DNA from: Malacoraja senta
Lineage: Eukaryota
Direction of reading: 5' to 3'
NCBI GenBank assembly: GCA_038087875.1
Contig: CM075995.1
Location: forward strand, 3,412,001-3,476,000
DNA length: 64,000 bases
Positions 31,820-61,096 of the stretch are shown here, one piece after another. The notes below the pieces were generated by a model. The model did no database searches, was not told the DNA's origin, and saw only the letters and a list, made by a program, of their open reading frames with translations. Both the position numbers and the translations under genes were made by a program. Numbering within the stretch: position 1 is the stretch's first letter; each line of letters opens with the position of its first letter.

Positions 31820-33011
31820 CCGAACCGCTCCACAGAGGATGCAATCTCCTCTGCAGTCCACCTGAGCCTACAACACCTGGAGGAGAAGAATACCCAAGTG
31901 CGGATGCTGTTTGTTGATTTCAGCTCAGCATTTAACACGATAATCCCCCAGCATCTGGTGAGCAAACTGGCACCCCTAGGTTTCAATACCATACTATGCA
32001 ACTGGATCCTGGATTTCCTTTCCGAAAGACCCCAGTCTGTGCGGGTGGGGAAGAACACCTCCTCTGTCATCAAACTGAGCACCGGCTCCCCTCAGGGCTG
32101 TGTCCTGAGTCCGCTGCTCTTTACATTGATGACACATGACTGTGTCGCCAGGTCCACCACTAACCATATCATCAAATACGCGGATGACACAACAGTAGTG
32201 GGCCTCATCCGCAATAACGACGACCAGGCATATAGAGAGGAGGTGGAACAGCTGGTGAGCTGGTGCAGCAGGAACAACCTTCTCCTAAATGGCAACAAAA
32301 CCAAGGAGATTGTAGTCGATTTCAGAAGGAAAATTCAGCCCAGTCACACTCCACTTTGCATCAACAACTCAGCAGTGGAGCAGGTGAAAAGCATCAAGTT
32401 CCTGGGGGTGCATATAACGGACACCTTAAACTGGTCCACAAACATTACATCTCTGGCAAAACGGGCACATCAGCGGTTGTACTTCCTCCACAGGTTGAGA
32501 AGTTTACACCTCCACCCTCCCATCCTCGCCACTTTCTACAGAAGCACAATTGAGTCGGTCATGACCGGCTGTATCTCTACGTGGTGCGGCAGCTGTACAG
32601 CTGCAGACTGGAAGTGCCTTCAGAGAGTGGTGAGGACAGCGGAAAAAATCATTGGGACTTCTCTTCCTTCCATCATGGACATGGGGTACAAGCGCTGTCT
32701 GAGTAGAGCTAAGGGCATTACCAAAGCCCCCACACACCCACAATTTGGACTGTTTATACTGCTTAACTCTGGGAGGAGGTACCGCAGCATGAAGAGCGGG
32801 ACAACCAGGTTCTGCAACAGCTTCATCCCCCAGGCCATAAGATTATTGAACAATCAATTAAACCGAGGCTAGAACTTTTTAAATATCGACACTTCTAAAA
32901 AAAATTAAAAAAAAACTGGAGAGTCAAATGCAACGAAATTTCGTTCTAGGTGCACTGTGTATAGGTGTATATCTGAATGACAATAACGTTTTCATTCATT
33001 CATTCATTCAT
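31820..33011 (+). mobile_element. Young 5'-truncated Rex1/Babar LINE with an RT ORF open to 32872
   Basis: [43 protein letters not shown] and SGRRYRS with no stops; 3' UTR and (CATT)n tail. Confidence 0.93.
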
Positions 33012-33421: not shown

Positions 33422-33703
33422 GCGCACTAACACTATCCTGCACACACTAGGGACAATTTATATTTATAGAAGGCCAATTAACTCAACAAACCTGTACATC
33501 TTTGGAGTGTGGAGGAAACCGAAGATCTCGGAGAAAACCCACGCAGGTCACAGGAGAACGTACAAACTCCGTACAGACAGCACGCGCAGTCGGGATCGAA
33601 CCTGTGTCTCTGGCGCTGAAAGCGCTGTAAAGCAGCAACTCTACCGCTGCGCCACTGAGCCGCCATAGTAAATATGGTAAGACCAATATATTCAGGTGAT
33701 CAA

Positions 33704-33939
33704 AAAATAGTAAGGTTAAACGAGAACTTACCAATTTGAAGTTTGATCTTTATTTTATGAGGAGTTACGTTGGTGATTACGTGAAGAAGTCCCGCCTGTG
33801 CGCATGCGCGTCAATCTTCAAAGCAGCGGTATGAAATCGCAGATAACAGAATATTTGAAGTAACATAGTAAGATCAGCAACATGAGAACTACCATATGAC
33901 CTTTATGAGAGAGAGGGTTGGGCGTGGTGGGCACGTAAT
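33704..33939 (-). mobile_element. DIRS right terminus (element A type)
   Basis: Reverse complement of the DIRS right end seen at 60690-60916. It contains a 34-nt ITR core identical to 55807-55840. Confidence 0.85.
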
Positions 33940-36900
33940 TGGATGGTTGCCCGAGTCACGGGCTGAACCAGCAATTCTATGTTAGAAATAACCATATTTC
34001 TATTATCATTCCCAACATCATCGGGAATCATGGCTGCATAGGCCAGTCACTACAAAAAATGGCTGAAGCGAGATTTTGCTGAATTTTTTGCAAGACCCGA
34101 CTGATGAGGCAAAATGGAGGAAGACGTTCCTCCCCAGTGTAGCGAGAATACATCTATCACCACTGCCATGCCACATATTTCACCAACATCCATTCTGTTT
34201 TGACATTGATTTTACGTGATGATACACCAGTGCCAAATGAGGTTAGGTAAACTATCACCGGATACTTTGACTTGATTGCACCCATGTGATTAACATATGA
34301 TTAACATATGACACCACCAAAGTGTATCAACTTGGACTTGAGCATGCAGATTATGCATATTCGCACAAAAACCTTTAACCCATAGAATGCACCTAGCGTC
34401 TATAGGTAGTTGATACCATATAACTGAAGAATTGGTAACTCATGCAAATCCCATCACCTCCGTAACTAGAGATGGTATTAGTAATTCCCCATCTTTGAAA
34501 CACTAGCATCAGTTTGTAATATAACTGAAGATTTACTGACGAAAAGTTAGTGGAGCAATGCTGAATACTGTTCGTCCACCATAGTGACTTTCATGGAGTT
34601 AAATAACGAGACCTACTTACCAGCGTCTCTAACTCCAGGTCCCTTACCTTTGCTGGAGTTCCAGTGAAATTTCATTCGCAGACTCTGTCCATGTTGTCAT
34701 TTCCATTAGATCGCTGATGCTGCACCAACTTCTCTTGTAGTGGCTAGTCTGTCTCCGACGGAGCAGCAATTTTAGAGGCAAAGCACACCGCTTTCCCTCA
34801 TGCGATTGTCGTGCATTATGCATTAAGCATGGGACCGCGGCACATAGTCATATTCGGGTTCCTGTTTGGAGTTAATCCATACTAACCTTAGACACTCTTT
34901 TTAGAGTGGGAGTAATTGCACCTGAACCAGGTGTCACCATCCGTATCCTCAATTTGTCTGTGCATGCCTCTGTACCAAACATGTTTTGCAACACCATCTC
35001 CCATGGTCTTATAATATATATGGCTCCATCTTCATCCTTTATACATCCGAATGGGAGGACCTATGCAACCTGAACCAGGGGCTGCCTCAACCATCTTCAT
35101 TCTTCATACATCCGAATGGGAGGACTTATGTAACCTGAACCAGGAGCTGCCTCAGGCAAGTGTGCATGTATTTTAGCACCATCTCCATCACTGCATTCAA
35201 CCTAATGGGAGGAATGGCAACCCTGAACCAGGCGTTGCTTCAGGCTCATGTGCATACTCCTGTAGCACTCTCTTTACCACTCCGTCATTTGAGTGGGAGG
35301 AAATTTGCAACCCTGAACCAGGAGCTGCTGCCTGACATGCCTTAAGATGGAGCGTTCTTTGACTGCGACAAGTCGCAATCTTGTCTGACATAGATGCCCA
35401 AGACTTGGCACTCACTTTGAGTTGGGATTGTCAGGTTGCTTCCTTCAGCAGCCACCAGGACTAGCTGTGCAAATCGATGCTCTGTTGGTATCCTCATTTC
35501 CCAAACAGGCTGCACTTGCTGGTGACTCCGAATCCTGCTCCTTTCCAATGCCAATGCAGTATACAGGGAAGGACTGGAGCGCCTCTGGCCCCCGTACGTC
35601 AGACATAGTGGGAGAAATGCTGGAACAAAAACCTGCCAGTTATTTGTCATGGGCAAAGACATTTACATGAATGAAGACGCCCATCCCAGTTAAATCAGAG
35701 ATTTGATTACTTTATTGATATGAATAAAGTCGGCGTCTTGGGGAAGAAACTTCCACAGTCCCTTTAATGAGCGGAATTACCATGACGCCACCATGTGTAG
35801 CTCGCACAGGTGACTGACAGATATAGCTCAACAAGGCTTTCCAAGCCAGGGATCTAGACCGCCATGGCAGGTCCGATTCTACTACACAATGTATTGGTGT
35901 AAGTGATAATAAAATTTCTCTCTTGGTTATGATAGTCACAACGTGACCTAGTGGCAACTATATAAATGCCCACCCTGTATAGCCATACTTTAAAAGAATA
36001 CACTATAACTAGTCCACACAACCCATGTTTCGGAAACCCAGACTCACGTACCTGCATAGTTACTGGTGGTCTTGAGGTAAGCCCAAAGGCCCCTGATGTA
36101 GGTTCCATTCCCGTCCTTGATTTGGAGGGTAGAACTGCCTGGGTGCGTGGATAGTATATTTTCCCTGAAGGCCAGCTTGGGCCTGGGCCTGAAGACCTCT
36201 GCCCACAGAATCAGTTTTCTGGCTGCTACCAGCTTTAGAGAAATGCTACTGCCATTGGAGACGTAAGGGTGATATTGCCGCTAGTAACGTGAGGGGAACT
36301 CAGGTCCCCCCCCCCCCCCCCCCCGGGTATTCTGGAATCTTATTCATAAATGTAGAATGTGCCCTGGACACACTTTCCGGGGTTGGGGTCAGTCACACAC
36401 TGACCCCTTGCACTCTCTCCACTGAGGGGAGATTAGTAAGCAGCCCTGAAAACAGGCGCTGCCGTAGTCCCCCGAGGACCTGCGCTGATATGGCCCTGAT
36501 TCGTGGATGGGTTAAACCCATATCAGGATGGGTTAAACGCCCGAGGACGTACCCTTAAATGATGGAGGGGAACCCTCCTGGCCGGGCTCGTCCAGCCTAG
36601 GCCTCTCCGACTCCGTATGGTTGCCCTCCTTTTGGGCTGCCGAAGTCGGGGTCGCTGACCGCACTGCCAGCGAGTTGGGTAGCGAACCCGACGGCCACCG
36701 GCTACTCGCTCTCGCACCGGCTACCGTAGCCGGCATCACCCGCAGTCTGAAGTACCCCGCAGCCCGAATAATAAAGCCCTCGGGAGTCGCTGACCACACT
36801 GTCAGCGACTCGAGCAGGAAACCCGACGGCCACCCGCTATCCGCTCTTCCGCGGTCCGTAGCCGTCATCCCCGCGGTCCAATTGGTTTCCCCGCGGTCTG

Positions 36901-37132
36901 ACCGGGTTTCGCCCGTATGCAATATCCAACAGGAAACTCTGCGAGAAGAGATTCCTGCAACAAAGGACAACCTGAGAAGTAAGTTCGAAACTTACCTGGA
37001 GGATTTGAAACTTACCGCTGAAGGAACAGCGCGCCTGCCAGCCAGTCGTTGCGCCATGCGTTAGACGTAATGACGCGCATGCGGGCTGGCGGATTCTTCG
37101 CGTAGTCACTCACGTGACTCCGAAGTAAAATA
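33940..37132 (-). mobile_element. DIRS retrotransposon 5' part (element B): left ITR, leader, decayed gag/pol
   Basis: Left end rc TATTTTACTTCGGAGTCACGTGAGTGACTAC. A decayed RNase H-like motif (QVD..., YVNHMGAIKSK) lies at about 34265-34345 and internal tandem repeats at about 34915-35345. Confidence 0.8.
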
Positions 37133-55562: not shown

Positions 55563-56046
55563 CACATAGCAAAATACTTTTCCACACAGCTTTTCCTTCA
55601 GGTTTTCCCTGGTTTCTTCCCTGGCCCCATGAATTTACTTGCACACAATAAATTTCTCCATGCCGGTGGCATGTATCCGAATATTATAGATTGGAATGTA
55701 AAACATTTTGTATCAGCTAGTCCCTTAGTTTCTTAACTTTCCCTGGACTTCCAAAGGACACATAAAGGTTTAGGCTTATTTTACTTCAGAGTCACATGAG
55801 TGATTCCGTGAAGAAGTCCCGCCTGTGCGCATGCGCGTCATATCGTCGTTCGCATGGCGAAGCACCGGACTGGCAGGGCATCGCTCCTGCCGACGGTAAG
55901 TTGAAACCTACAGGTAATTTTTTTATTACTTACCAGGTTTAATGTTCGTGCAGGAACCTCTCTTCACAGAAGTATCCTGCAGGATTTGGCGAAGTCCACG
56001 AGTGGACCGACTATGGGCTGTGGGGAGACCCCAGTTCTGACCGCGG

Positions 56047-56083
<37 letters not shown>

Positions 56084-56193
56084 GGAGAGTCAAATGCAAC
56101 GAAATTTCGTTCTAGGTGCACTGTGTATAGGTGTATATCTGAATGACAATAAAGTTTTCATTCATTCATTCATTCATTCATTCATTCATTCAT
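56047..56193 (+). mobile_element. Extreme 3' end of the Rex1 family at 31820-33011, inserted into the DIRS leader
   Basis: A-run, then CTGGAGAGTCAAATGCAACG...GACAATAA and (TTCA)n; near-identical to about 32916-33011. Confidence 0.9.
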
Positions 56194-56490
56194 AATCAGG
56201 TTGTCGCGTTCGCGTTTAAAGCCACTGACAAAGCGGTCAGTGGTTTAAATCCTGCTGTGGTTCCCGGGGTCGGTTGAACACGCAGGGAGGCGGGGTTAAC
56301 GCCAGAGTCGCTGACATTACGGTCAGTGGCTCACGGAATCGTCTTTCTGTGGGCCCCAGGCATGGGGTGAGAGCACAGATTAAATCAAACAGCCCTATTG
56401 AACTCGGAGGAGTTGGGCTGAGAGGGTTTCCCTTTCAGAAATAAGTATGAATTTGTATGCATTCTGTTGTTATTTTTTAACCCTTCACAG

Positions 56491-56750
56491 GCACCAGCGC
56501 AGGCCCATGGTACAGGCCACGCCAGCAGCCCTTGGGACAGGGCTGCTTAGTGTATGAGCGCGGGCCTATGGTACAGGCCGCACCAGCAGCACCTGGGACA
56601 GGGCTGCTTAGTGTGTGAGCACGGGCCTATGGTACAGGCCGCACCAGCAGCACCTGGGGCAGGGCTGCTTAGTGTGTGAGCGGGCCTATGGTACAGGCCG
56701 CACCAGCAGCACCTGGGGCAGGGCTGCTTGGTGTGTGAGCGCGCTAGCCG
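56491..56750 (+). repeat. ~60-bp tandem repeat x4 inside the DIRS leader
   Basis: Unit GGGCCTATGGTACAGGCCGCACCAGCAGCACCTGGGGCAGGGCTGCTTAGTGTGTGAGC. Confidence 0.9.
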
Positions 56751-56866
56751 CATTGTCGCACGGAGGCTGTGAAGATTTAAATCTCCAGGTAAGTGCCACA
56801 AACTTAGCTGGAGTTCGGGTTGTTTTGCTGTGGTGCCGTGCTGTATATTTCTTCCAGGACAACACC

Positions 56867-57850
56867 ATGGACAAGACGACCAAGGGAAAGAGGCAAGCCG
56901 CAAGAAAATTGGTAGACAGCCGCGGGAGTGGGGTCTGTGAACAGCTGCCTCATACCCCTGCACAATTGCCGGCCGGGAGCGGGGCGACTGAAGACTTGGT
57001 GCTGCAAAGCACAGAGCCAGCGCCAGTCGGGCATAAGGCCACGAGCAAGTCTGTTAGGCCCACTGACTCGGCAGAGTCAGGAGCGGAGAATTCCTCTCCG
57101 GGGCTGGATATCCCAAGGGTTCAAGGGTTATCCCAAATGGAGCACCTTTTGCATAGGTTGTTCCCCAAGGGCACACTCCAGGAGCAGGAGTAGTGTCGGC
57201 GGCAGGCTGGAGAAGAGGCCGCGCCAGCAGCACCTAGTAGAGGGCTGCTCGATAGCACCCTCATTAATGAGGCGCGTGCAATGGGTCAGCTGAGTTCTGA
57301 CCCCGACTCTGACGGTGAGTTCAATCCAGGCGAAGACGGCAGCTGCCAGATGTCCCATTCCTGGCAGTACGATTCACTGTTCCGTCAGAGTCAGGAGAGG
57401 CACTGGGAGATGAGTAGGCCTCCACGATAAATTACTTAGTCTCCCATCAGCTACAGGAGCTCACGATGGATGAGACCGCAAAGAAGCATGAGGCCCCGGG
57501 GAACTGCGTGTTGCTTAAGGTGCCGGCAGTGAACCAGGTGATATGGGGTCAGGTGAGCTGCAAGAATCCTGAAGCTGCTGGGCTCAGAATCACTGCGTTC
57601 GCTAGAACGATCGATGGAGGGCAGCTGTCCGAGACGCAGCAAGGTTAAGCCTCCGGTGGTCGGCAAATCTGAAAAAAGGAGGTATCCCTACAAGAGAGGT
57701 GCAGATTCCGGGTTTGGACCAGGAACAAGCCGGCCGTCAACTCAGATACGCAGCTGGCACTCTGCAGCTCCAAGGATGAACGGCATTTTGGCGACAACGC
57801 ACCCTATGCCTTCATCAGCAGTGGGCAGTTCACTGAAGCTGGTGGCAGCA
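56867..57850 (+). pseudogene. DIRS gag-like ORF1 remnant
   Basis: Kozak-like ACCATGG start, a low-complexity N-terminus and a P-x-N-C...P-x-VN-xx-IW motif; interrupted by stops. Confidence 0.55.
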
Positions 57851-59401
57851 TGACAGCTGGGCACAGGTTCCACGTACCCTACCAGTCCTACTCAACAAGG
57901 TGGGTCCGGCACTTCCGAAACATGGGTAAGTGGACCACTCACAAGTAGGTAATATTTACACTTGTTTGTACAGCATACAAAGGATAAAAGCATTGTCATC
58001 TGCTTAGAGGGCACAATACTAGCATTCCAAGCAAGTTTGGAATTAGGGCCAGAATTGTCGTATTCAAGACAGGCTCGAAAATCGTGCAAAGTACCCATGG
58101 AATGATGGCAGGAGTGGCCTGTTCATTATGAAAAATGGAGAATGTCGTTTAACTGTACTAATAACAGTAAAACATTGCAAAATGGGATAAACTATATTCC
58201 GAGGGTATTCAACTAATTATTAAATCGGTGTTTGGACTCAGAGTTCGAAAACACTTGTTATATCTGGTCTGTATGATATTTCTAACGCTGTATTTTGTTA
58301 AAATCACCGGTTCAGTCTCAAACTATATTTGAGAAATTGGGCTCATCCATCCAGCTAACTTAAGTTGTTACCAAATAGACTTGTTGGTCATTGGAATTTA
58401 CCTTTAACTATTCATTAGTTATGACTCCGCCATGGGGCACGAGATTGGAGTTAATAGAAACCTGTTATAAAGCTGAATTCTATTAATGTAGAGTATCGGC
58501 AATATAGTAGCTGTGAGTCAGCTGTGCAAGTCGGGGAACTGACATCGTGCAAAGTAGCAATCTCTCAAATGACATGTGGGTGATTGTTAACTGGCTTATG
58601 CTATGACCAGCTGAAGCTACCTAAGTCACAATGATGAACAAACAGTATTCAGCATTGCTCCAGCTAAGTGCTCTAAGAGGGGAAATTGCGAATGTCATCT
58701 CTAGTTGGTGGAGATTTGCATGAGTTGCCAATTCTTCAGTTGTTGGTATCAACTACCTATAGACGCTAGACGCATCCCATGGGTAAAGGGCTAGTGAGCG
58801 AATACATAATCTACAAGCCCAGCTTCATGTTGATACACTACGGTGGTGGCAGATGTTAGTCACATGGCAATCAAGTAGTATCCTGTAATATTTACCTAAT
58901 CCCTTGCCACTGGTTTAACATCAAGTTCAGATTCAGGACAACACAGAATAAGTGTTGAATCACAAAGTATTTATGAAAATATGGTTCAGCGGCCAGGGCA
59001 ATGGATATTCCCATCAACCATCTCCTCGTGGCCGCAGGATGGTCAAGGTTAGTTTCGAAAAAATGTTTTTCCATAGACTGATTGCCGACCCAGGGCTAGT
59101 TGCCCATTCTGTTTTACATTCAAATCTTAGCCTCCCCTGAGATAGACGGGTTGCTATTGATTTATTTATTCACGTAAACCATTAATACGTTTAAATCAAT
59201 GTCATGGTTAATCCATTGTTGATTATTCACTCATCCTGAGTTAATCGATGCAGTGAGACGCCGGGATTTGAATCTACGGCATGAAATCACAGAGCTTTGA
59301 ACTCTTCACGGAATCACTCACGTGACTCCGAAGTAAAATAGTAAGATTAAATGAGAACTTACCAGTTTGAAGTTTGATCTTTATTTTATGAGGAGTTACG
59401 T

Positions 59402-60916
59402 CAATTCATTGACTTGCAGACTCTGAAAAGACTGTTCCTGCGGCTCGGGTTGTCAGGCCGAACCATGGACGTGCTCACTGCAGATTGCAGGGATAACACC
59501 AGATAAGCAGTACATTTCCTCATCAGGAGATGGTAAGTATTTTGATTAAATGCTAAATTACATATATACGGCACGGATAACTGACGTCTGGGAGTTTATT
59601 GTAGAATGGGTCTTTGACAAAAATTAAGTTATAGTACCATTAACTGTGCCAAACGTGCCTTCTCATCATAATTTCTGCAGGGAGCGGGACCCACTCTGTC
59701 GGGTCTCACCCTCTGATATACAGATTCATAAAGGGTATCTTCAACTCAAACCTCCCAGGCCCAGGTACGCAGAGATATGGGATGTTAACATTGTGCTGAT
59801 GCCGCTTCGCCGGTGGGCTCCAGCTACATCCCTGTCCTTGGTCAAACTCAATTACAAAGTGGTTATGCTCATGGCGCTGGTTCAGCGCAACGGGTCCAGT
59901 CATTGCATAAGCTGTGGCTGGACAGGATGGTTACATCACCATGAACATAAATATGGCAATTTATGTTCATGGCTTAGTCAAGCAGAGCAGACCAAGGGCA
60001 TCAGGTCTCAAACTAGATTTTGGGGCATACCCCATGGACCTTCGGTTGTGCGTGGTCACACATCTACTACAATACGTCAAGGACACTAAGAGCCTTAGGG
60101 GCACAGATCTAGCAATGTTTGTTAGTTACATTAAACCTCATAAGAAGGTATCAGTACAGACAATCTCAATGTAGTTAAACGGGTTCTGGCTTGTGCAGGA
60201 GTGAACACTGACATTTTCAAATCTCACTCCACCAGGGCTGCAACAATTTCAGCAGCAGGGTTATGGACGTTCCACTGTACCACATCCTAGCGACTGCAGG
60301 ATGGTCAAACGAACGATCTTTCCAAACATTTTATAACAAACCCATTGCCAGACCGGGGGTATTTGCCAACTCTATTTGCCAACTCTATTTTAAGTTCTGT
60401 TTATAGTTTCCCCCAGATGAGTGGGGTTACTATTGTTATTATTTGTTCATTAATAAACATCGGCATGTCTAAATCTATGTCATGTCTGAATGCATTATTA
60501 ATGTTCACTCATCCTTGGTCAATTGATGCAGTGAGTGACGCATGGACTCGTGTCCACGGCATGAAATCACAGAGCTTTGAAATCTTCATGTAGTCACTCA
60601 CGTGACTCCGAAGTAAAATAGTAAGATTAAACGAGAACTTACCAGTTTGAAGTTTGATCTTTATTTTATGAGGAGTTACGATGAGGGATTACGTGCCCTC
60701 CGCTCCCAACCCTCTCTCATAAAGATCAGCCGGTAGTTCTAGTTTCTCGAATCTTACTATATTCAGTTCATCAACTGTTATCTGTGATTTCACACCGCTG
60801 CTTTGAAGATTGACGCGCATGCGGGCTTGGGGTTCTTCATGTAATCCCTCATCGTAACACCTCATAAAATAAAGATCAAACTTCAAACTGGTAAGTTCTC
60901 GTTTAATCTTACTATT
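59402..60916 (+). mobile_element. DIRS 3' part (element B): pol end, tyrosine recombinase, ICR, right ITR
   Basis: ICR at 60581-60692 is complementary to a left end and to the right end 60840-60916; terminus GTTCTCGTTTAATCTTACTATT. Confidence 0.9.
59420..60400 (+). pseudogene. DIRS tyrosine recombinase, frameshifted
   Basis: KPPRPRYAEIWDVNIVL, AQRVQSL (catalytic R), LCVVTHLLQY, FKSHSTRAA (HxxR), AGWSNERSFQTFYNKP (W and catalytic Y). Confidence 0.88.
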
Positions 60917-61096
60917 ATATATATATTTAAATATAATATATAAATATATATATATATTTAAACTTTTTTCTCTCTCTCTCGTTTATCATATTGTTTCCAG
61001 TGTACTATGTTTATATATTCTGTTGTGCTGCAGCAAGTAAGAATTTCATTGTTCTATCTGGAACATAAGACAATAAAACAGTCTTGACTCTTGACT

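What the first reader, a model, noticed from the sequence alone, without database searches (positions are those of the whole stretch)
56221..56332. Paired covarying RNA hairpins conserved in the leaders of both DIRS elements
Seen: element A has GCCACTGAC-AAAGCG-GTCAGTGGT (56221-56244) and GAGTCGCTGAC-ATTACG-GTCAGTGGCTC (56305-56332). Element B in sense orientation has GAGTCGCTGAC-AGTGTG-GTCAGCGACTC (36784-36811) and TCGCTGGC-AGTGCG-GTCAGCGA (36652-36673). All four have an 8-11-bp stem, a 6-nt A-NNN-YG loop and compensatory or G-U changes, while the surrounding leader has diverged. Inference: a selected cis-acting structure such as a packaging or dimerisation signal, or a palindromic protein site. 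I know of no such element described for vertebrate DIRS.
Basis: partly seen in the sequence, partly recalled or inferred. Interest (0 to 1): 0.72.

Follow-up and report, generated by a model that had tools for sequence, protein, structure and literature searches.

The report
Gag-derived hairpin kept by parasitic DIRS1
A small hairpin inside the first gene of a family of vertebrate jumping genes is kept and often multiplied in dead copies that have lost that gene, so it is likely an RNA tag that lets those copies borrow the copying machinery of intact ones.

Summary
The four hairpins are real, at the stated places, and recur over 1,500 times in the genome (controls 1-2). They are not a leader feature. 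In protein-coding copies the same stem lies once inside ORF1 (gag-like), at about codons 34-42. The 'leaders' of A and B are decayed, partly duplicated ORF1 5' ends of non-autonomous families, so A and B share the hairpin by descent.

Selection is still supported. In non-coding families the inner stem shows 11 family-level changes against about 30 expected from the flank (p 7.5e-5), while private CpG mutation rates are equal. All 104 inner majority pairs are Watson-Crick or G-U. Two or more hairpins occur in 35 of 54 non-coding copies and 0 of 24 coding copies.

Against: a tree-aware covariation test is not significant, the flank is only modestly more diverged (75% vs 83%), strand evidence is thin, and one small family fixed a mismatch. 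The loops exclude kissing self-dimerisation.

Best reading: a cis-acting RNA recognition stem for ORF1p/RT in trans, placed like Ty1's in-GAG packaging domain. No wet evidence; none found in print for DIRS. The scan earlier noted other hairpin arrays in a Ngaro and an LTR element.

The parts
55777..55814 (+). Left terminus / ITR start of element A
   Evidence: 95% complementary to 59303-59340 and 87% to 60583-60620
55893..55953 (+). Two U1-type splice donors (GT at 55896 and 55914) and a candidate acceptor (AG 55952-55953) upstream of the ex-ORF1 region; splicing is predicted, not shown
   Evidence: Sequence, positions; donor-pair pattern 2101 times in the genome vs 6 control
56047..56191 (+). 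Private insertion (poly-A plus short repeat tail ending in (TTCA)n) just upstream of hairpin A1
   Evidence: 97% match to 32897-33011; absent from family copy L014/L102
56219..56246 (+). Hairpin A1 (11-6-11 register; loop AAAGCG), homologous to ORF1 codons ~34-42
56305..56332 (+). Hairpin A2, from an 85-90-nt tandem duplication of hairpin plus downstream ex-ORF1 sequence
56489..56743 (+). Four ~61-nt tandem repeats of ex-ORF1 sequence carrying a second stem (GCAGC.CCTG/CAGGGCTGC)
56785..57190 (+). Captured second ORF1 5' end (donor, acceptor, ATG at 56867, stop after codon 110) from a distant coding family
56963..56990 (+). Third homologue of the hairpin site inside the captured ORF1 start; decayed in this copy, paired lower stem in most family copies
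60583..60919 (+). Right terminal structure of A (ICR / right ITR); a partial second copy lies at 59257-59400
   Evidence: 82-nt arms 96% complementary
36955..37130 (-). Left terminus, two donors and candidate acceptor of element B
36784..36811 (-). Hairpin B1 (perfect 11 bp, loop AGTGTG)
36649..36676 (-). Hairpin B2 (8-bp core, loop AGTGCG), from a 135-nt duplication
36380..36930 (-). Decayed ORF1 5' end of B (start codon lost, frame broken)
   Evidence: Local alignment to coding copy L183
33700..33920 (-). Right terminal structure (ICR region) of B
   Evidence: match to 60688-60916

Best explanation
The hairpin lies inside the 5' end of ORF1 in coding DIRS1-like copies and is conserved and often duplicated in non-coding families, where it likely forms on the sense RNA and likely serves as a recognition tag that would let ORF1 protein and reverse transcriptase supplied in trans pick that RNA for copying. 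Shown: (1) its place in ORF1; (2) A and B belong to non-autonomous families that kept amplifying after losing their reading frames; (3) the inner stem changed less than its flank and stayed paired while loop positions 2-5 turned over; (4) duplications. The free loop with a fixed first A and last purine suggests shape or stem read-out, perhaps with a non-canonical A-G closing pair, rather than loop pairing.
For: Location: ORF1 starts 92-105 nt after the donor pair in coding copies, and the site reads E-S-L-T-V-R-S-A-T. Non-autonomy: 4 of 5 three-hairpin copies cover only 12-13% of RT (the fifth none), yet are 87-92% identical to each other; windows A and B give no RT hit. Selection: inner arms show 11 family-level parsimony changes vs 29.7 expected from 42 flank columns by CpG class (Poisson p 7.5e-5; 13 of 19 groups used). 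Singleton CpG rates are equal (0.041 arm, 0.040 flank), while shared variants number 10/1376 in arms vs 89/3569 in flank. Pairing: majority pairs 2-11 in 19 non-coding groups are 176 WC, 12 G-U, 1 A-C and 1 other of 190, whereas within-group departures are symmetric (25 G-U, 22 A-C, 12 other, 1 WC of 60). Double changes include T-A to G-C, G-C to A-T and T-G to C-G; 58 cells change on both sides vs 21 in shuffles (not tree-corrected). A site is found in 78 of 90 leaders collected by an anchor outside the hairpin. Three neighbouring ORF1 stems survive in only 10-14 of the 54 non-coding copies that carry this site. Two distant coding families keep a stem at the homologous codons. Synonymous-codon randomisation gives z -0.2 to -4.6 in 15 copies and -1.0 to -2.4 in 7 more. 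DIRS-1 RT acts in trans, its ssDNA is antisense, and 5'-end occupancy by element proteins has been presumed (PMC7192593, passages).
Against: The tree-aware G-test found no significant pair among 122 units (best stem pair E about 19). All 43 non-coding rows lie on one side of the tree (62 of 78 rows used), so independent events are few. Strand evidence is weak. At pair 6, G-U 110 vs A-C 126 genome-wide. The 513 vs 16 excess at pair 4 may be one inherited change, and 8 of 12 fetched C-A copies form a small non-coding family with that mismatch fixed. In coding copies only 6 of 24 sites have pairs 4-11 all paired, and the top three pairs often mismatch. Four-fold sites in the stem change 1.8 times vs 2.96 in background, a modest effect. 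Non-CpG singleton rates are lower in arms than flank (0.011 vs 0.019), so alignment noise may inflate the flank. Tandem duplications also hit segments without this hairpin. In coding copies the most consistently structured stretch lies just downstream (nt 361-560), not on this hairpin.
Confidence: 0.5

Rival explanations
1. The hairpin is a selected RNA structure read by host factors. It would keep the genomic RNA unspliced, stable or exportable despite two strong donors about 200 nt upstream.
For: The same conservation data apply. The donor pair occurs 2101 times and an acceptor-like sequence precedes the ORF1 ATG. Integrated copies keep this putative intron, so unspliced RNA is copied.
Against: The hairpin covers no splice site. 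The free loop offers no fixed motif for a known host protein, and there is no Rfam match.
Confidence: 0.18
2. The palindrome is an accident of the ORF1 codons, inherited from one ancestor and tidied by template switching, and the duplications are neutral slippage.
For: There is apparently one main origin of the non-coding families. Covariation is not significant. Template switching can create and maintain hairpins (PMC8794818, passages). Many other tandem repeats occur.
Against: Template switching restores Watson-Crick pairs and would not leave a G-U fixed in 513 copies. There are 0 inverted loops vs 247 in normal orientation. The first loop base is A in 98 of 102 non-coding sites while positions 2-5 turn over. 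The stem is more stable than synonymous recodings.
Confidence: 0.14
3. It is a palindromic DNA site (11-6-11, like dif or lox) bound by the element's tyrosine recombinase or a dimeric host factor, or a hairpin in the single-stranded cDNA.
For: Conserved arms with a free 6-nt spacer; few changes in the arm sequence of non-coding families; weak strand bias.
Against: Both halves changed together by transversion (T-A to G-C), which only pairing explains. Arm sequence differs among coding families while pairing mostly persists. The spacer ends are asymmetric (A...G). Tandem sites have different spacers. DIRS integration uses the terminal 3-bp junction (PMC3266345, passages). Three of four window hairpins are weaker on the antisense strand.
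Confidence: 0.13
4. The hairpins dimerise two RNAs by kissing loops.
For: Analogy to Ty1 SL1a/SL3a (PMC5454406, passages); chimeric families imply that two RNAs meet during copying.
Against: Of the 14 commonest loops none is self-complementary (best 4 of 6 positions); the loops are purine-rich and the most variable part.
Confidence: 0.05

Closest known systems
DIRS1-like tyrosine-recombinase retrotransposons (vertebrate families with LAP2alpha-type ORF1)
   Same: ITRs, ICR, ORF1 then RT, MT and YR; about 4.7 kb.
   Different: A and B are non-autonomous, near full-length derivatives with dead ORFs and a multiplied ORF1-derived hairpin; no cis RNA signal for DIRS was found in the searches run.
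Ty1 TIPIRT domain (53-nt 5' UTR + 327 nt of GAG coding RNA; PMC5454406, passages)
   Same: Stem-loops overlaid on the 5' gag coding region, needed in cis by helper-dependent elements (shown for Ty1, inferred here).
   Different: No complementary kissing loops here; a different retroelement order; no functional test.
Retroviral psi / psi+ downstream of the major splice donor, and VL30-type parasites (from general knowledge)
   Same: Purine-rich hairpin loops downstream of 5' splice donors, kept by non-autonomous RNAs.
   Different: The site lies downstream of the predicted acceptor and ORF1 start, so a short leader intron would not remove it; ORF1 has no clear homology to retroviral Gag (PMC4495291, passages).

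Membership tests
DIRS1-like retrotransposon | Inverted terminal repeats | tested here: met
   A: 55777-55814 vs 60583-60620 and 59303-59340
DIRS1-like retrotransposon | Internal complementary region near the 3' end | tested here: met
   A: 82-nt arms 60614-60695 / 60838-60919, 96% complementary; B carries the homologous region
DIRS1-like retrotransposon | RT, MT and tyrosine recombinase in order after ORF1 | tested here: met
   Family copy L185: RVT_1 E 2.8e-20; Dam E 0.012 and Phage_integrase E 2.5e-5, both below the curated cut-off; RNase H not reported. The window copies hold only broken remnants.
DIRS1-like retrotransposon | ORF1 with LAP2alpha domain | tested here: inconclusive
   No Pfam hit; Atlas hit at 0.89 to a cluster with 21% PF11560, a lead only
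Ty1/retroviral-type packaging domain | Structured RNA in the 5' part of gag | tested here: met
   (sequence-based prediction)
Ty1/retroviral-type packaging domain | Retained in cis by helper-dependent elements | tested here: met
   (comparative evidence only)
Ty1/retroviral-type packaging domain | Complementary kissing loops | tested here: not met
   (self-complementarity only; a partner elsewhere in the RNA was not searched)
Ty1/retroviral-type packaging domain | Bound by Gag/ORF1p and required for RNA selection | not testable with these tools
   Needs binding and mobilisation assays
Known Rfam cis-element or ribozyme (IRE, HDV-like, hammerhead) | Match to a covariance model | tested here: not met
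   No hit at gathering score and none over the hairpins in 2 window stretches and 9 loci
Tyrosine-recombinase site (dif/lox type) | Fixed half-site sequence, matching spacers between partner sites, position at the recombination junction | tested here: not met
   Half-sites vary among coding families, tandem spacers differ, and the site is internal

The most novel reading that the evidence does not exclude
This is the first RNA packaging/template-selection signal of a DIRS retrotransposon. It is a stem-loop hidden in ORF1 that parasitic full-length families perfected and multiplied to outcompete their autonomous helpers, an arms race readable in over a thousand genomic copies.
Probability: 0.35. 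Interest if true: 0.75.

Novelty: new variant of a known kind. Interest (0 to 1): 0.5.

Why it matters
How DIRS elements choose and prime their RNA template is unknown (PMC7192593, passages), although their proteins act in trans. Non-autonomous families show what must be kept in cis once coding is lost, and here they point to a defined 28-nt target that can be probed and mutated. The finding also shows that apparent 'leaders' of DIRS copies can be recycled gag sequence.

Tried and rejected
- Rfam: no relevant match (the L114 hits lie outside the hairpins and below gathering score).
- IRE-like reading of the C-AGUG loop: rejected because the loops vary and the stem does not fit.
- Tree-aware covariation test: not significant.
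- RNA evidence: no RNA holder listed. One RNA run from another organism, about 6% read, gave almost no depth over the hairpins and no splice joint, so it is uninformative.
- Metagenomes: no ORF1 relative; 0 of 58 donor-pattern hits carried the ITR or hairpin.
- Pfam on 4 fragments of window element A: nothing.
- RNAalifold over 475 nt of 30 coding copies gave only a weak consensus.
- 6 of 21 rows mislocated the site (one copy has it deleted); the two distant families were redone.
- Loop inversion as a template-switch footprint: 0 vs 247.
- Literature searches listed no paper on a DIRS RNA hairpin or packaging signal. The library lacks most subscription papers, and Repbase was not available.
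- Earlier findings by sequence and by place: nothing.

Full report
Observation. The four hairpins are present as described. In the window the core pattern hits only these four sites (7 strand-matches, 0.29 expected). Three fold with z between -3.6 and -5.2; B2 does not stand out alone. In the genome (G000, 1.94 Gb) the motif has 1515 forward and 1499 reverse matches against 2 and 1 in the control. It is therefore a feature of a large repeat family. The host looks like a cartilaginous fish from its other repeats; that is recalled, not tested.

The elements. A (about 55777-60919, +) and B (about 33700-37130, -) have inverted termini and an internal complementary region. A family copy, L185, carries ORF1, RT (Pfam RVT_1 E 2.8e-20), a weak Dam hit and weak integrase hits, in DIRS1 order. 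This matches the DIRS1 layout in PMC3266345, PMC9210276 and PMC4495291 (passages read; no supplements).

Unbiased sample. To avoid selecting on the hairpin I collected copies by a splice-donor pair upstream of it (2101 genome matches vs 6 control) and took the first 90 of the 100 listed, all on contig C1. A profile with no pairing term found 126 sites in 78 of 90. Of the 12 misses, most are interrupted or deleted copies; others have a longer loop (L093, L097, L168) or a diverged site (L092, L099).

The main correction. In 29 of the 90 copies that I classed as coding, ORF1 begins about 92-105 nt after the donors and the hairpin lies within it, at about codons 34-42. B aligns to this coding region with its start codon lost and the frame broken. 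A's family has the same decayed segment, plus a second ORF1 start captured from a distant coding family with a third homologous site. Among 40 fetched long copies, the 20 coding-type ones mostly retain RT, MT and YR. The 20 others have broken or missing ORFs: 4 of 5 three-hairpin copies cover 12-13% of RT, yet are 87-92% identical to one another. These families therefore spread after losing coding capacity. On a tree of the region upstream of the hairpin (62 of 78 rows; damaged ends, late sites and three duplicates left out), all 43 non-coding rows are separated from the 19 coding rows (99/92). A and B thus share the hairpin by descent. Pairs and triplets come from duplications of at least two kinds (85-90 nt and 115-135 nt units). 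Two or more sites occur in 35 of 54 non-coding and 0 of 24 coding copies.

Is it selected? I grouped 167 non-coding hairpin units (102 from the unbiased set less duplicates, plus copies found by similarity to A and B) by their flanks. In 19 groups of three or more, majority pairs 2-11 are 176 Watson-Crick, 12 G-U, 1 A-C and 1 other. Within-group departures are symmetric (25 G-U, 22 A-C, 12 other, 1 WC). In the 13 groups with a homologous upstream flank, the inner 16 arm positions show 11 family-level changes against 29.7 expected (p 7.5e-5). Singleton CpG rates are equal in arm and flank, and all 104 inner majority pairs are paired. Loop positions 2-5 change about 3 times per site, while the first base is A in 98 of 102 sites. 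Double changes include T-A to G-C, G-C to A-T and T-G to C-G. On 89 distinct sites, 90.6% of cells pair and 58 change on both sides vs 21 in shuffles, a control that ignores relatedness. In coding copies the site is more stable than synonymous recodings, and two distant families keep a stem there.

Against. A tree-aware G-test on 122 units found no significant pair. Between families the flank is 75% identical against 83% for the arms. At the CpG pair, G-U and A-C copies are equal genome-wide (110 vs 126). The 513 vs 16 excess at pair 4 may be a single inherited change, and 8 of 12 fetched C-A copies form a small non-coding family with the mismatch fixed. By my hand count the independent fixed events are about 4-5 G-U against 1 A-C, which is suggestive only. 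Coding copies tolerate mismatches in the top three pairs. The strongest folding signal in six coding copies lies just downstream, at nt 361-560, so this hairpin is one module of a structured ORF1 5' region. Other segments are duplicated too.

Mechanism. What a non-coding family keeps cannot serve ORF1 translation or protein sequence; it must act in cis during transcription, processing, template choice or copying. DIRS-1 RT works in trans, its single-stranded cDNA is antisense, and its primer is unknown (PMC7192593, passages). The fixed G-U pairs and the weaker antisense folding in three of four window hairpins lean to the sense RNA. I put recognition by the element's ORF1p/RT complex at 0.5, host RNA processing at 0.18, neutral inheritance with template switching at 0.14, a DNA site at 0.13 and kissing dimerisation at 0.05. 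Template switching (PMC8794818, passages) left no inverted loops (0 vs 247). The loops are not self-complementary. RNA reads from another organism could not test splicing or expression.

Comparison and novelty. The elements are members of DIRS1. The hairpin is placed and retained like the Ty1 TIPIRT domain, which includes 327 nt of GAG coding RNA needed in cis (PMC5454406, passages). It fails the kissing-loop feature, so it is not filed there. Rfam has no match. Seven searches (listings) showed no description for DIRS; subscription papers, supplements and Repbase notes were not seen and could bear on this. Earlier scan notes describe different hairpin arrays in a Ngaro terminal repeat and in an LTR element; I did not test them. 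Verdict: a real and probably selected RNA stem, a new variant of a known kind of signal, function unproven; interest 0.5.

Noticed in passing
G000, e.g. L190-L204: Non-autonomous DIRS1 families keep near full length (about 4.1-4.7 kb) despite dead ORFs and make up about 6 in 10 of the sampled copies; a length constraint is possible.
   Followed up: partly
window 56785-57190; L080, L085, L166: Chimeric families: A's family captured a second ORF1 start from a distant coding family, and another family pairs a non-coding 5' end with a hairpin of a different coding type. This suggests template switching between element RNAs.
   Followed up: partly
window 55893-55953 and 36955-37018: Two tandem U1-type donors about 20 nt apart and an acceptor-like sequence just before the ORF1 start, 2101 genome copies; splicing of DIRS1 leaders is untested.
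   Followed up: partly
ORF1 codons ~50-145 of coding copies (e.g. L150, L118); window 36395-36470 (-): Further predicted stems downstream. Two (GCAGC.CCTG/CAGGGCTGC and GTCAG-N6-CTGAC, the latter with the main hairpin's arms in reverse order) persist in 35 and 31 of 54 non-coding copies.
   Followed up: partly
L255-L274; window 56963-56990: In one distant coding family the top of the hairpin is predicted to refold into a GGAG tetraloop above a 2-nt bulge.
   Followed up: no
window 56047-56191 and 32897-33011: Two 97%-identical copies of a short young repeat tail with a poly-A head and (TTCA)n end; one is inserted into element A.
   Followed up: no
window 59257-59400 vs 60537-60680: Element A has a 1280-nt duplication that yields a second partial ICR / right-terminus block.
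   Followed up: no
L189:430-620: A ~190-nt insertion in this DIRS copy has many 98-99% identical genomic copies, i.e. a very young repeat.
   Followed up: no
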